Positions 42,701-51,700 of a stretch of DNA of 64,000 nucleotides are shown piece by piece; positions within the stretch are counted from its first letter, which is position 1; each line of letters begins with the position of its first letter. The position numbers are program-made. Origin of the DNA: Heteronotia binoei (taxonomy: Eukaryota); assembly GCF_032191835.1 (NCBI RefSeq), contig NC_083231.1, positions 97,030,001-97,094,000 of the forward strand. The letters are read 5' to 3'.

Positions 42701-45700
42701 TAGAATATATGTCAACAACATCATTCCCAATGATTTCAATACTTCCAATTCATCCTCTTGTTTCTGTGCTAGGTAAAGGTACAAGGGTAGACTGATACAC
42801 TTCTCACGTTATTACTGATATACTTCTTACTGATTTACTTAATAAAGATTTCTTATGACATGTAAACTACAGCCCACTTATCAGATGCAAAAAGTGTATC
42901 CTATACTGGTACACACGTATATGTGTACAAATATAAAATTACAAAATTGGCAGGTGGAATCTTTGTCCAGCCTGATCAGAGACAAACAAAATCTGGTGCT
43001 ATCTGGCCATGATCGTTAGGTAGTACACTAAGTTTGTGTAGAGAAAAGGAGATTTCCCCAGTGGATATCACAGAAGCTTTCAAGATCATCAGCAACACTA
43101 AGGGAGGCCATTTTGTTATCACTGTCGCCTCATAGCCTTTACCAGTCACCCCTGTCTTTTTTTGTTTTCAAATAAATCTTATCTTTATTGTCAGCTAGAA
43201 AAGTGGCATCAATAACAAAACAAACAATTAATGCCATTTGGGATTCTTGACTGGATTAGTCTTTTTTTTTTTTTTAACACTGCTCTAAAATAGAAGTTGT
43301 AGTGTGAGACTAATATAGGTGTAGATCACAGAGCTAATTGTTGCCAATCTCCTCCCTATTACCTAATGGAAATCAGCTCTTTAGCACCATTGTTTAGCCT
43401 GTGGGAAAAAGGGAATCAACTTACCCTGTGACTAGGGAGGAGGAAGGGAAAGGGGAAAGGTTACCTCTCCTAACATGGAATTCACATCTCAAGGAAATTC
43501 ATCCACATGGGCAAATGTCTAACAGAATCCCAGAAATTGGCAGAATTACTATCATGGGTACTTTCTCTGTTATTCTAACATAAATGGAGCCCTGACCTGG
43601 ATGACCCAGGAGAGCCTGATCTCACCACTAGGGATGGGCATGGATCAGGAAAATGCTGTTTGGTTTGGTTCTTGGACATGGCTGAACCATGAACCAAACC
43701 AAACCAAACCAGGAAGTTTGTGGCTCTTGGTCCCTCAGATCCTGTTGAAAGGGACTGAAACCCTTTAAACAGTGTTCACACAAAGCTTGAGAAACAGCTG
43801 AGTGACGGGGAGCAGCTTGCTGTTTCAGACTTGTTCAGTCCCTTTAAATAGTTGAGCGGCAGGGAGTGCTTCCTTGCTGCTCAGCTGTTTTTGTGGCTTT
43901 TGCAGGAAACAGAAAGCAGGAGTCCTTTTAAACCTCTTCCTGCTCCATCCACAAGTCACCATGAACCATGGAAGTTTGCAATGGTAGAATTGTCATGAAC
44001 TTCTGTTCATGAACCATAATAAGGGCAAAATTTGTGATGAATTTTGCTTCATGGTTTGGTTTGTGCCCATCCCTCCTCATCATATCTTGGAAGCTAAGCA
44101 AGTTAGACATATTTTATTTATTTATTTATTTATTTTATATCCCTCCCTCCCCACCGAAGCAGGCTCAGGGCAGCTCACAACAACAAAATAAAACAATCGA
44201 TTTAAAAATAGCATGACATTAATATGGCAATTTAAAAATCAATAATTAAAGGCTTAGTACTTGGGATAGGAAACCACTAAGGAAGTCCAGAGTTGTTAAA
44301 CAGAGGCAGACAATGGCAAATTACTTCATCTCTTGCCTTGAAAATCCTTTTGGGTCTCCAGAAGTTGGCTGCCACTTGATAGAACTTTCCATCATCAATG
44401 TAAATGTGTTGTTTTTTAAAAGGTGCAATCCTAAACAGTGTGTCTTCAATGGACTTAGAAAAGTGTCACTCTACTTAGGACAGCACTGTAAATCACCATG
44501 TGTTTATTATGCTGGCGTTTCCTCTCCTGTTCACTTCTACAAAAACCCAATCAACAAGCAATCTGCTCTCACAAGCAGTATTAACCTTGTGGTCACAAAT
44601 GTGCAGATCATCTTCTGAAAATTGCCGGGGGGTGGGTGAGGATCACAACTTCCAGTTTTCTACTCCACAGAACGGAAGAGGCAGTCTTCTCCACGTGGCT
44701 TGTTCTAAGCAGGGTTTTTGTCTCCTTAACTACCTTGCTTACTTCCACTCAAACTGATGCCTGTTATTTGCTTATGCAGCCAGAGCCCCTTAGGGCAGCA
44801 AGGAGAAACCAAAGGAGAGGCTGGCAGCCAAGAAGAACAGGTCAGGCTACAGGAGAAATGAGAAAACTAAAGCAACAGCTCACTTCAACAGGAGCTCTCT
44901 TTTTAATTTCTGAATAGTTGGTTATTTCTGAGTAATTGTCATTAAAATAGGATAATTTTAACAAGCCAACCACCCTATGAATACTCCCAGCTGGAATACT
45001 AAACAAACAAGAGGAGGGTGATCTGAGTCTCACTGGGAACTGTGGAAAGTGGGAGTTCCCACACGCCTTAGAGAACATGCCATGCAGGTGCACCGCACAA
45101 AGCTCTGCTCTATTTTAACGCAGAAAATTTGTACTTGCCATAGCAACTGCCACCTCCTGCGATACATCTCCTGTGGTGGCACCTTTGAGATGTGACACGC
45201 CTCCTCAGTGAGGTGCTTTCAGCAGCCCATCATGCAAATACGACTATTTTCCACAACATTTGTGTGCAGGCGTAATTTGATGTCTCAGCAGAGCCTTAAA
45301 TGCTCAGATCCATGCAGGCGTCCCAAAAGACAATCTGTGGAATGTGCACCTTGAAACTGCTTAACCTGACTGTAGTGTATGGCGTTCGTAGAACGCCATC
45401 ATTCAAGACAGCGCGACCATTTCGTTATAACGTACCATCGATAAAGCGTTAGTCCGCTAAAGCCGCGGAGGCAAAGGTGACAACCAGATGCCTCCGCGAA
45501 GAGCGCTGGTCATCCGCCAATCACAGTGAGTGGCGGGAAATACGGCTGGCCAGCATTGGACTGGCCAGCAGGGTGAATAGTTCCGGAGCTGTATATATGC
45601 GGGACCCGGCCCGCGTGTTCTCTCTCTTACCTCGTGTTTGTACCATGCAATAAACTATGTTGCCCGACTCGCGTCTCTCAGACTGGTACATAATAGTGGC

Positions 45701-48700: not shown

Positions 48701-51700
48701 GAAACGCACCCGGGCATTGTGAGGATGAAGGCCCTAGCCAGGAGCTATGTGTGGTGGCCGGGGATGGACAGAGAAATAGAGGACTGGGTCCGGAGATGCA
48801 GTGCGTGCCAGGAATCGCGGCCGGACCCACCCAGCGCCCCGGCCACAAGGTGGGAAACCACAAGGAAACCCTGGTCCAGGCTCCACATAGACTTCGCGGG
48901 GCCATTCCAGGGGCAGATATTCCTTATAATCGTGGACGCCTACACAAAATGGTTAGAGGTCCTCCCTGTAGCATCCACCTCCTCAGCAGCCGCCATCCGA
49001 GCCCTGCGCTGGGTCCTGTGCACCCACGGCATCCCAGACACCCTGGTCTCGGACAACGGGGCCGCCTTCACCTCGGGAGAGTTCCAGGCCTTCCTACAGA
49101 GGTACCTCATAAGGCACATCAGGTCGGCCCCCTTTCACCCCGCCACCAACGGCCAAGCCGAGCGGATGGTCCGCACCACCAAAGAGGCCCTGGGCAGGAT
49201 CGTGCAGGGCGACTGGGATCACAGGCTGGCCGCATTCCTATTCGACAACAGGGTCATCCCAAACCCTGTCACAGGGATCAGTCCAGCAGAGCTCCTCATG
49301 GGGCGCAAGCTCACCACAAGGCTAGACAGACTACACCCCGACCGAGCCTCTGACACACGAGGGTCCCCAGAGGTCCGCGAGGCAGCCAGGGGGTTCTTTG
49401 CCGGGGATCCAGTGTTCGCCCGCAACTACGCCTCGGGACCCGAGTGGGTGGCTGGGCGGGTGCTACGGGTCGTGGGCTCCCGTCACTATGAAGTATCCAC
49501 TGAGGGGGGCCAGATCCTACGCCGGCACATCGACCAGATGCGCCGCAGGACCCTACCCGAAGCACCCACAGAAGCAAGGGGGGCAGCCCAACCCGAGGAG
49601 CCTACCACAACCCTGCCGCCATCCATGACGCTGCCCCCTCCCGCAGGGCCAAACCAAGCCCCCGAACTCGGCCAGCAACACTCGGATGCTCAGGCTCCCG
49701 AGGAGACGCCGGGGCCCGAAGCCACCACGACTCCGCAGGCCACCCCCCGACGTTCGACTCGAGAGCGCCGGCCTCCCGCCTACCTCCAGGACTATGTTAC
49801 TAACTAAGGGGGGAGGAGTGTAGTGTATGGCGTTCATAGAATGCCATCATTCAAGACAGCGCGACCATTTCGTTATAACGTACCATCGATAAAGCGTTAG
49901 TCCGCTAAAGCCGCGGAGGCAAAGGTGACAACCAGATGCCTCCGCGAAGAGCGCTGGTCATCCGCCAATCACAGTGAGTGGCGGGAAATACGGCTGGCCA
50001 GCATTGGACTGGCCAGCAGGGTGAATAGTTCCGGAGCTGTATATATGCGGGACCCGGCCCGCGTGTTCTCTCTCTTACCTCGTGTTTGTACCATGCAATA
50101 AACTATGTTGCCCGACTTGCGTCTCTCAGACTGGTACATAATACTGACTATGGTCACAGCAAACATCTTGAAACCCTTTCAGAAATCCCTTCCTTAAACT
50201 GGTCTGCAAAACTATGGCTATCTCAAGGACTTCAAATCAGGGTCCTTCTGCATATGTAGGCACCCCTTTGAGCTGAATACAGGTTAGACTAAGCAACATT
50301 ATCTGCTCAAGGCTCTAGCATGGCTCCACTTCTTCTCTGGCCCATTGGTTCTCCTTGGTCTGGTTATAAATGTTTCCACTGCTTCTACCAGTGCAACAGC
50401 TGATCCTTTGCCTAGCAGGATCTTCCTGCATTAACCTCCAGACCTTCCTATCTGTTCTTGCTTTGCATCTTGCACCAAGACTTAGGGCTGCCAACTTCAG
50501 CTTGGGAAATTCCTGGATATATGGGGGCAGTGCATGTAGAAGAAGCTCAGTGGGGATATAATGCCATTGAGTCTACTTTTCAAAACAGCCTTTTCCTCCA
50601 GAGGCACTGGTTTCTGCAGCCTGGAGATCAGCTGCAATTCTGGGAGATCTCCAGCCACCACCTTGAGGTTCAGCAATCCCAAAATAGTCACATGGACTGG
50701 AGTGTGGAAAGCAAGCTGTGAAGCTCCGTGCCAAAAACTGCAATTGAATTTTTCTATAGGAGACTCATCCAGTGGAGGTTGGTTAGTGTCAAGTCACGAG
50801 TTGGTTAGTGAATGAATACATACAGGTATGAGCCAATGTTAATTTAGTGCACCTGGAGGATCAGGGCTTTTTTAGGTTTACATTTGAAGGGTTGCAATGC
50901 TGACTAAGCATAAGGGAGCATAGAGAGTGCATGGTTCTGAGTGGTGAAGTTGCTCTGGATTTATATAAGGTGGGCATTGCATATCTGTATAGCCACAGAA
51001 CTTTGGGAGGTTGGTTACCTGTTTTTAATGTTTGCATGTCAAACTTTTAAAATAGAACTTGGAAAAAGCAGCCAGTGAAACAGGACCTGCATACAAGTTT
51101 TGTCTGCTGCTGCACTGGGATGAGAAATGTATTGTAAATATACTTCTGTAATTCACTGCACTGGGACCAGTGTAAACCAATTGTGAAGACTGTGGATTGT
51201 GTTCTATGTAAAGATTGCTGGATCCCGGTGCGCTTCATATTTGTGAGCAACTGGACTGGTGTATGAGAGAAAGCTACAAGTACTATGTCAGTGTTTTGAA
51301 ACTTTATTATAAAGAACTTTGCATTGCTTCCAACAGACTCAAAAGGTATTTTTGGCATGGAGCTTCGCAGCTTGCTTTCCACCCCGCCTGGAGGTTGGCA
51401 ACCCTAACAGACCTCCAGGCACTACTTGGAGGTTGGCAACCCTGAGACTCCTAGTGCAACACCAACAGTGAACAAGTCCTATTGTCCTTACAGTACAATA
51501 CCATGGGTCTTTATCCAACAGTTCTTGCAGCTTGCTAACAATACCCAACCGAGTTCCTACACATAGTACTCCATTTGGGGTTGGTTCGTCTCCCTGTGAC
51601 CCAGCGCTGACAGGGAACCAAGCTAAGCACGCAGTAAATAAAACAGAAGGCCACTTCTCAGGAACAGCTTGCACTCAGCATGAGAAGGATCTATGTTGGC

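What the first reader, a model, noticed from the sequence alone, without database searches (positions are those of the whole stretch)
45371..50143. Very young, almost intact, ultra-compact Mag-like Gypsy retrotransposon inside a neuronal gene
Seen: LTRs 322/325 identical, perfect TSD, CpG-rich body in a CpG-poor host, and all gag/PR/RT/RH/IN motifs in one frame except a single indel. Gag starts in a perfect Kozak context and the pol stop overlaps the PPT, so there is no 3' spacer. Known: tandem CCHC knuckles, a single gag-pol ORF and no chromodomain fit the Mag branch. Inference: an active or recently active family, possibly polymorphic and possibly acquired horizontally; it may be undescribed for this lineage.
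Basis: partly seen in the sequence, partly recalled or inferred. Interest (0 to 1): 0.65.

Follow-up and report, generated by a model that had tools for sequence, protein, structure and literature searches.

The report
Young Gypsy retrotransposon in gecko GRID2 intron
This is a recently inserted, nearly complete copy of a jumping gene of the Gypsy type, sitting backwards in an intron of a brain receptor gene; it is an ordinary member of a family common in lizards and snakes.

Summary
At 45371-50143 lies a 4773-bp LTR retrotransposon. It has two 325-bp LTRs differing at 3 of 325 positions and a 5-bp target-site duplication. Its CpG observed/expected ratio is 0.81, against 0.16 for the rest of the window. 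The gag-pol reading frame has the Ty3/Gypsy order (zinc knuckles, protease, RT, RNase H, integrase) and no chromodomain. It is broken once, by one frameshift in pol, with no other internal stop. The frame change is a break or an assembly error, not a programmed shift, because relatives read through in one frame.

The element lies antisense in a 27.5-kb intron of GRID2 (glutamate receptor delta-2). All three LTR differences are CpG decay, so the copy is young but not necessarily present-day.

Its closest relatives are 'K02A2.6-like' proteins of the gecko Heteronotia binoei (72-96% identity). They sit in a well-supported gecko plus lacertid clade within a family of thousands of proteins in squamates, ticks, nematodes, frogs, fish and insects. 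'Mag-like' is plausible but could not be tested, because no reference sequences were available. Compactness is the family norm. Current activity, polymorphism and horizontal origin remain unshown. The finding is ordinary: a new member of a known kind.

The parts
45366..45370 (.). Left copy of the 5-bp target-site duplication (CTGAC)
   Evidence: Read; identical to 50144-50148
45371..45695 (+). 5' LTR, 325 bp, with 27 CpG. It carries a CCAAT at 45517-45521, a TATA-like run at 45592-45598 and an AATAAA at 45649-45654. The promoter/poly(A) roles are inferred.
   Evidence: Direct repeat found; bounds and 3/325 mismatches; motifs read
45697..45714 (+). Primer-binding-site-like stretch starting TGG, one base after the LTR. 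The primer tRNA was not identified.
   Evidence: Read. ARAGORN finds no tRNA gene in the window to compare with.
45810..49807 (+). gag-pol reading frame. It is a single ORF in relatives; here it is broken once, by one frameshift in pol, with no other internal stop.
   Evidence: Nine relatives each align in two frames in order. It covers 97% of the internal region.
46497..46595 (+). Gag nucleocapsid: two zinc knuckles, CX2CX3HX4C (46497-46535) and the canonical CX2CX4HX4C (46554-46595)
   Evidence: Pfam zf-CCHC E 0.0024 / 0.00084; pattern search
46716..46811 (+). Aspartic protease, with the active-site DSG at 46758-46766
   Evidence: Pfam Asp_protease_2 E 0.0027, below the curated cut-off. D and G are shared by 98% of 118 relatives.
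47277..48340 (+). Reverse transcriptase and RNase H-like part of pol. The catalytic motif reads FFDD.
   Evidence: RVT_1 E 4e-20, profile positions 3-204 of 205; RT_RNaseH_2 E 4e-34; RT_RNaseH E 1e-32. The F variant is shared by 27 of 144 relatives.
48659..49141 (+). Integrase: H2C2 zinc domain (48659-48823) and catalytic core (48869-49141)
   Evidence: Integrase_H2C2 E 8e-18 and rve E 5e-12. The D, D and E residues are shared by 97-100% of 74 relatives.
49403..49807 (+). Integrase C-terminal part: a GP-x-W stretch (49403-49495, GPY/F-like, a recalled motif name), then a 103-aa low-complexity tail. No chromodomain.
   Evidence: No Pfam match at E<=0.01 for the last 168 aa. The W is shared by 98% of 64 relatives. 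Tail composition.
49806..49818 (+). Polypurine tract abutting the 3' LTR and overlapped by the pol stop codon
   Evidence: Read
49819..50143 (+). 3' LTR, 325 bp. It carries the TpG/CpA state at all 3 sites where the 5' LTR has CpG.
50144..50148 (.). Right copy of the target-site duplication (CTGAC)
58275..58475 (-). Host exon of GRID2 (GluD2 residues about 423-489), flanked by AG and GT
   Evidence: PDB sequence search: GluD2 chains at E 6e-33, against GluD1 at 4e-22; translation
30441..30753 (-). Next host exon of GRID2 (GluD2 residues 490 to about 594), flanked by AG and GTAAG. The intron between the two exons, 30754-58274, holds the element.
   Evidence: PDB sequence search: GluD2 at E 9e-51, against GluD1 at 2e-20; translation; donor site read

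Best explanation
The stretch is one integrated copy of a Ty3/Gypsy-type LTR retrotransposon. It belongs to the widespread animal lineage that NCBI labels 'K02A2.6-like', which is probably the Mag lineage. It inserted, in evolutionary terms recently, in antisense orientation into a 27.5-kb intron of the GRID2 gene of a gecko-like host.

Shown: two near-identical LTRs, a 5-bp duplication of the target, a PBS-like site and a purine tract at the expected places, and one long gag-pol frame coding for Gag with two zinc knuckles, protease, RT, RNase H and integrase.

Inferred, from the established life cycle of LTR retrotransposons: the 5' LTR drives a full-length RNA. A single Gag-Pol polyprotein is made and cut by its own protease. 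A tRNA primes reverse transcription at the PBS and the purine tract primes the plus strand. The integrase then inserts the DNA with a 5-bp staggered cut.

This copy carries one frameshift in pol, so as assembled it cannot make RNase H and integrase by itself. Every strongly conserved protease/RT residue and all but one RNase H/integrase residue are kept, so it is a fresh copy of a source that was functional. All three LTR differences are CpG decay, which indicates that the copy has been methylated in the germ line since it inserted.
For: Structure: LTRs, TSD, PBS-like site and purine tract. Domain order. Break count: one frameshift and no other stop, since nine of nine relatives align in two frames in order.

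Intactness: the window carries the shared residue in 61 of 61 PR-RT columns that are >=95% conserved among 118 relatives, and in 84 of 85 such RH-IN columns among 74 relatives. The integrase D, D, E and zinc residues are kept.

Family: 241 longer proteins at E<=0.001, 160 of near length, and 2936 at E<=1e-50 among 8000 scored candidates. The best are 16 Heteronotia binoei proteins at 72-96% identity to the upstream piece. In the NJ tree of the RT (145 sequences, 250 columns, 100 bootstraps), window + 11 Heteronotia has support 98; adding 2 Gekko gives 99; adding 9 lacertid sequences gives 100.

Youth: 3/325 LTR differences, and CpG o/e 0.81 against 0.16. All 3 differences are CpG to TpG/CpA. 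CpG positions make up 54 of 325, so the chance of 3 of 3 is about 0.005.

Host gene and orientation.

Mag link: a passage in PMC8905726 ties the 'K02A2.6-like' label to Steamer-like elements of the C-clade. Passages in PMC6238403 and PMC8220671 place the A, B and C clades in the Mag lineage and call it the most widespread Gypsy lineage in animals.
Against: No near-identical second copy was seen. There is none in the window. Neither exact reading-frame piece is in the protein collection. The best protein match is 95.7% over 256 aa, and that same protein is only 81% identical in the downstream piece. No host genome, Repbase or Dfam could be searched, so copy number and present activity are unknown. 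Mag membership rests on a database label and on excluding other lineages, not on a tree with reference elements. The protease match and one zinc-knuckle match are below Pfam's curated cut-offs. No Pfam capsid family matches Gag. The LTR ends read TG...TA, not the usual TG...CA.
Confidence: 0.88

Rival explanations
1. The copy is in fact fully intact. The single frameshift would be an error of the assembly, not a mutation in the animal.
For: There is only one break in about 4 kb of coding sequence, while 61 of 61 and 84 of 85 highly conserved residues are kept. The LTRs are 99.1% identical. Single-base length errors are a known weakness of long-read assemblies (general knowledge, not tested here).
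Against: Nothing in the window speaks for an error. Three CpG changes have had time to accumulate in the LTRs, so one length change in 4 kb over the same period is unremarkable.
Confidence: 0.25
2. The frame change is a programmed -1 ribosomal frameshift, as used by many retroviruses and some LTR retrotransposons, and the element is intact as it stands.
For: The downstream frame is -1 relative to the upstream one, and the two open stretches overlap.
Against: The change lies inside pol, after a complete RT match. It is not at the gag/pol or protease/pol boundary. All 8 full-length relatives tested run through in one protein. The 120 listed relatives longer than 1260 aa carry RT and RNase H in one protein, and nearly all carry integrase too. 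Making RT without RNase H and integrase has no known precedent.
Confidence: 0.03
3. The family reached this gecko lineage by horizontal transfer. This was the first reader's suggestion, based on a CpG-rich, GC-rich body in a CpG-poor host.
For: The element's RT is as similar to lacertid elements (up to 81%) as to Gekko japonicus elements (up to 81%). Hard-tick sequences group with squamate ones. The composition contrast is large.
Against: The nearest relatives are 11 sequences from one gecko species, then another gekkonid, then lacertids, with bootstrap 98, 99 and 100. That nested pattern also fits long residence in squamates. Over the whole protein the identity to the best lacertid element is only 58% and 63% for the two pieces, which is unremarkable for old divergence. 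High CpG is expected of any freshly inserted copy of a transcribed source. No synonymous-rate comparison was possible, because only proteins were available.
Confidence: 0.15
4. It is an endogenous retrovirus or a domesticated gag/pol-derived host gene, not a retrotransposon.
For: It has LTRs, gag, pol, a PBS-like site and a purine tract, as a retrovirus does.
Against: There is no room for env: gag-pol fills 97% of the internal region and its stop touches the purine tract. All homologues found are Gypsy-type polyproteins. The intact LTRs and TSD, and the position inside an intron on the opposite strand, argue against a domesticated gene.
Confidence: 0.02

Closest known systems
'K02A2.6-like' Gypsy polyproteins annotated in Heteronotia binoei (e.g. 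P0129, P0122, P0001) and other squamates
   Same: They share the domain set, a length class of about 1300 aa when complete, and the F variant of the RT catalytic motif. Identity is 72-96% to the upstream piece and 69-90% to the downstream piece. Clade support is 98-100.
   Different: None is near-identical, and most are partial gene models. They are unnamed as a transposon family. I found no paper describing them in geckos.
Mag lineage of Ty3/Gypsy (Mag of Bombyx mori, SURL of sea urchins, Jule of Xiphophorus, Steamer of Mya arenaria)
   Same: Both have gag-pol in one frame in an element under 5 kb, no chromodomain and no env, and a wide spread over animal phyla. The 'K02A2.6-like' label is tied to Steamer-like/C-clade elements in a passage of PMC8905726. 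My figures for Jule (about 4.8 kb, one ORF) and Steamer (about 5 kb, one ORF of about 1335 aa) are recalled. The papers are not held; I saw only their titles in reference lists.
   Different: No reference sequence could be brought in, so the branch (A, B or C clade) and even membership are untested. No mollusc or echinoderm sequence is among the 120 best rows, so the element is not especially close to SURL or Steamer.
Chromoviruses / V-clade and Gmr1-like Gypsy elements of vertebrates
   Same: Both are Ty3/Gypsy-type LTR elements present in vertebrate genomes. The clades are listed for teleosts in PMC4746887 (passage).
   Different: This element has no chromodomain. Its integrase lies downstream of RT, not upstream as in Gmr1 (the Gmr1 order comes from a passage in PMC8220671).

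Membership tests
Ty3/Gypsy (Metaviridae-type) LTR retrotransposon | Two direct LTRs flanked by a short target-site duplication | tested here: met
   325-bp LTRs with 322/325 identical positions; 5-bp TSD
Ty3/Gypsy (Metaviridae-type) LTR retrotransposon | pol order protease - RT - RNase H - integrase | tested here: met
   Pfam matches in that order on the + strand
Ty3/Gypsy (Metaviridae-type) LTR retrotransposon | PBS next to the 5' LTR and polypurine tract next to the 3' LTR | tested here: met
   A stretch starting TGG lies one base after the LTR, and a 13-nt purine run abuts the 3' LTR. The primer tRNA was not identified.
Ty3/Gypsy (Metaviridae-type) LTR retrotransposon | Gag with nucleocapsid zinc knuckle(s) | tested here: met
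   One canonical and one CX2CX3HX4C knuckle. No Pfam capsid match.
Mag lineage | Groups with reference Mag/SURL/Jule elements in RT, RNase H and integrase trees. The lineage is defined by phylogeny (passages in PMC6238403 and PMC8220671). | not testable with these tools
   No tool returns the reference elements, and sequences may not be typed in. The only evidence is indirect: the 'K02A2.6-like' label and its link to the C-clade.
Mag lineage | gag and pol in a single reading frame (recalled as typical of Jule, SURL and Steamer) | tested here: inconclusive
   Relatives are single proteins of 1270-1400 aa. This copy has the same layout but is broken once. Whether the trait defines Mag is recalled, not checked.
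Mag lineage | No chromodomain at the integrase C-terminus | tested here: met
   No Pfam match in the last 168 aa. No chromodomain accession appears in the Pfam lists of the 120 rows.
Chromoviruses | Chromodomain after the integrase core | tested here: not met
Gmr1-like Gypsy elements | Integrase upstream of RT | tested here: not met
   Integrase is downstream of RT and RNase H
Endogenous retrovirus | env gene, or a remnant of one, between pol and the 3' LTR | tested here: not met
   The pol stop overlaps the purine tract, and gag-pol fills 97% of the internal region

The most novel reading that the evidence does not exclude
The element would belong to a Gypsy lineage that has moved between squamates and their hard-tick parasites, and perhaps between lizard families, and that is still active in a gekkonid. 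In the RT alignment, 7 of 8 Rhipicephalus/Dermacentor sequences have their best match in a gecko (71-79%), not in other ticks (60-67%). They fall on the squamate side of a bipartition with bootstrap 66. The tick copies lie on chromosome-sized contigs, so contamination is unlikely. That would be an LTR-retrotransposon counterpart to the tick-linked BovB story. It would also make this near-intact copy a lead to a live vertebrate Gypsy family.
Probability: 0.15. Interest if true: 0.55.

Novelty: new member of a known kind. Interest (0 to 1): 0.25.

Why it matters
Near-intact Gypsy elements are rare in amniotes outside squamates, so a copy this fresh suggests that LTR retrotransposition went on until recently in this lineage. 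It also gives a clean reference copy for annotating a family that genome pipelines now label only as 'K02A2.6-like' genes. The insertion adds 4.8 kb with its own promoter-like LTRs, antisense, to an intron of GRID2. It could therefore serve as a presence/absence marker in population work. None of this changes what is known about how such elements work.

Tried and rejected
Programmed frameshift: rejected, because the frame change lies inside pol and relatives read through in one frame.

Endogenous retrovirus or domesticated gene: rejected.

Other copies or solo LTRs in the window: none found by blastn or tblastn.

Exact look-up of the two reading-frame pieces in the protein collection: not present, so no 90% cluster could be counted.

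Primer tRNA: ARAGORN finds no tRNA gene in the window. The one Rfam tRNA match is the head of a SINE-like repeat, so it was not used to assign the PBS; no base-by-base comparison was made.

Rfam: no family matches inside the element at gathering score.

Papers: the Jule paper, Bowen & McDonald 1999 and Metzger 2018 are not held. Searches for Mag/Gypsy in squamates or geckos found no description of this family (60 papers, 20 listed; 6 papers; 18 papers, 15 listed). No supplementary file was opened. Repeat tables in the supplements of PMC6050309 and of the Gekko japonicus genome papers might list the family.

Not used: the genome-contig collection (bacteria and archaea only), structure prediction, the representative-protein search and the ESM Atlas. 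None of them could settle the open points.
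Full report
**1. What is there**

A direct-repeat search finds one pair of repeats around the finding. Read base by base, these are two 325-bp LTRs at 45371-45695 and 49819-50143. They differ at 3 of 325 positions without gaps. CTGAC lies immediately outside both LTRs, at 45366-45370 and 50144-50148. The element is 4773 bp long. The window holds no N.

One base after the 5' LTR a stretch starts with TGG, as a tRNA primer-binding site does. A 13-nt purine run abuts the 3' LTR, and the stop codon of the long reading frame overlaps it. 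The gag ATG at 45810 sits in GCCGCC-ATG-G, and the 114-nt leader has no ATG. The LTR carries a CCAAT, a TATA-like run and an AATAAA in the order expected of U3-R-U5; these roles are inferred. The LTR ends read TG...TA, not the usual TG...CA.

**2. Coding capacity**

Two long open stretches on the + strand, in different frames, cover 45810-49807. The Pfam matches run in Ty3/Gypsy order:
- Upstream piece: a zinc knuckle, a weak aspartic-protease match, and a complete RT (E 4e-20, profile positions 3-204 of 205).
- Downstream piece: the RNase H-like domains (E 4e-34 and 1e-32), the integrase zinc domain (E 8e-18) and the integrase core (E 5e-12).

Gag has two knuckles, one CX2CX3HX4C and one canonical. 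The last 168 residues match no Pfam family, so there is no chromodomain. The tail is 103 residues of low complexity. gag-pol fills 97% of the space between the LTRs, which leaves no room for env.

**3. Breaks**

I compared nine relatives with the element DNA by tblastn and kept only counts and outer bounds. Eight of the nine are full-length single proteins. Each aligns in exactly two frames, in order, with overlapping pieces. The stops counted inside alignments arise where an alignment runs past the end of an open stretch.

The result is that one gene, pol, is broken once, by a frameshift, and there is no other internal stop. The shift lies within pol, after the complete RT match, and not at the gag/pol boundary. 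The relatives read through in one frame. It is therefore a break or an assembly error, not a programmed shift.

Otherwise the copy is in very good condition. It carries the shared residue in 61 of 61 PR-RT columns that are at least 95% conserved among 118 relatives. It does so in 84 of 85 such RH-IN columns among 74 relatives. At the 90% level the figures are 98 of 98 and 132 of 136. The integrase D, D, E and zinc residues are present.

The RT catalytic motif starts with F instead of Y. This is not damage. The F is shared by 27 of 144 aligned relatives: all 11 Heteronotia, 2 Gekko and 10 lacertid sequences, plus 4 arthropod sequences.

**4. Age**

The element has GC 0.60 and CpG o/e 0.81. The rest of the window has GC 0.42 and CpG o/e 0.16. 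All three LTR differences are CpG in the 5' LTR against TpG or CpA in the 3' LTR. CpG positions are 54 of 325, so 3 of 3 by chance is about 0.005. Two things follow. The copy has been exposed to methylation-driven decay. And the plain K/2µ age overstates its age.

With K = 0.0093, substitution rates of 0.5-2.5e-9 per site per year give 9 to 2 million years. These rates are assumed from memory, not taken from a paper read here. The 271 non-CpG positions show no difference at all. 'Young' is right. 'Present-day' is not shown.

**5. Surroundings**

Two open stretches on the minus strand match solved structures of glutamate receptor delta-2 far better than those of delta-1:
- 58275-58475 matches residues 428-489 (E 6e-33 against 4e-22).
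- 30441-30753 matches residues 515-601, and its upstream part continues the protein from residue 490 (E 9e-51 against 2e-20).

Both are flanked by AG and GT, and they are consecutive in phase. I searched them exon by exon and left out the joined step.

The intron between them, 30754-58274 (27.5 kb), holds the element, which lies antisense to GRID2. The 'neuronal gene' claim is thus supported. No other copy or solo LTR of the element is in the window.

**6. Relatives**

Three protein searches were run. The family is very large: 2936 proteins at E<=1e-50 among 8000 scored candidates.

The nearest are 16 Heteronotia binoei proteins. They are 72-96% identical to the upstream piece and 69-90% identical to the downstream piece. 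Next come Gekko japonicus, lacertids (Podarcis, Zootoca, Lacerta), other geckos, snakes, hard ticks, Xenopus, Trichinella and Trichuris, soft ticks, insects, a pseudoscorpion and fish. NCBI names nearly all of them 'K02A2.6-like'.

No hit is near-identical, and neither exact piece is in the collection. The host species is therefore not determined. It is a gecko-like squamate close to, or the same as, Heteronotia.

I built a neighbour-joining tree of a 260-aa RT segment. It used the 144 of 173 species-named records that cover at least 90% of the segment, plus the window (250 columns, 100 bootstraps). Support was as follows:

| Group | Bootstrap |
|---|---|
| Window + 11 Heteronotia | 98 |
| + 2 Gekko | 99 |
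| + 9 lacertid sequences | 100 |

Deeper nodes are weak (10-66).

**7. Mag or not**

Passages in PMC6238403 and PMC8220671 define the Mag lineage by phylogeny (A, B and C clades) and call it the most widespread Gypsy lineage in animals. A passage in PMC8905726 reports that Steamer-like elements of the C-clade are commonly annotated 'K02A2.6-like'. PMC4746887 (passage) lists the Gypsy clades of teleosts: Gmr/Osvaldo, Barthez, CsRn1, V-clade, Mag and Skipper.

The element lacks the chromodomain of chromoviruses and the inverted domain order of Gmr1. Its layout (one frame, under 5 kb) matches what I recall of Jule and Steamer, whose papers are not held.

No reference sequence could be brought into an alignment, so membership is likely (about 0.7) but untested. 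No mollusc or echinoderm protein is among the best 120 rows of any search, so the element is not close to SURL or Steamer themselves.

**8. Horizontal transfer**

The composition contrast is what any fresh copy of a transcribed source shows. The nested gecko, gekkonid, lacertid grouping is compatible with long residence in squamates.

Two points keep the idea open. The window's RT is as similar to lacertid sequences as to Gekko sequences (81% each). And 7 of 8 Rhipicephalus/Dermacentor sequences have their best match in a gecko (71-79%), not in other ticks (60-67%) or other animals (59-66%). A bipartition of squamates plus 7 hard-tick sequences against the rest has bootstrap 66.

Only proteins were available, so no synonymous-rate test could be done.

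**9. Verdict**

It goes beyond the evidence on current activity, polymorphism, horizontal origin and novelty.

This is a new member of a known kind. It is useful for annotation and as a possible insertion marker, but it is not surprising to a specialist.

What stayed unchecked:
- the host genome, Repbase and Dfam;
- reads of the sequenced animal;
- supplementary repeat tables of squamate genome papers.

Noticed in passing
Relatives P0008, P0147, P0152, P0153, P0178, P0199 (Rhipicephalus) and P0203 (Dermacentor): Hard-tick copies of this Gypsy lineage are closer to gecko copies (71-79% in RT) than to copies in other ticks (60-67%). They fall on the squamate side of an NJ bipartition (bootstrap 66). 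This may reflect an old tick-squamate horizontal transfer.
   Followed up: partly
window 47277-47747 (RT) and the aligned relatives: The RT catalytic motif begins with F instead of Y. The variant is shared by all 11 Heteronotia, 2 Gekko and 10 lacertid sequences, so it marks the clade and is not damage.
   Followed up: yes
window 45371-45695 and 49819-50143: All three LTR differences are CpG in the 5' LTR against TpG/CpA in the 3' LTR. The LTR ends read TG...TA, not TG...CA.
   Followed up: partly
window 32028-32099 (+), with about 140 bp following: Rfam finds a tRNA-like sequence (53 bits) that ARAGORN does not call. It is probably the head of a tRNA-derived SINE.
   Followed up: no
window 52439-53915 (+): Two overlapping open stretches of a non-LTR (LINE) retrotransposon, with a full RVT_1 match (E 1.5e-35). 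A microsatellite follows near 53.95 kb. The copy looks fairly young and truncated at its 5' end.
   Followed up: partly
window 8492-9209 (+): Decayed LINE reverse-transcriptase fragments (RVT_1 E 2e-07 and 1e-03) in two frames.
   Followed up: no
window 28501-29000: A CpG-island-like patch (GC 0.62, CpG o/e 0.71, 32 CpG) inside GRID2, about 1.4 kb downstream of exon 30441-30753 in gene orientation. It is the only such bin outside the element apart from a weak one at 59001-59500.
   Followed up: no
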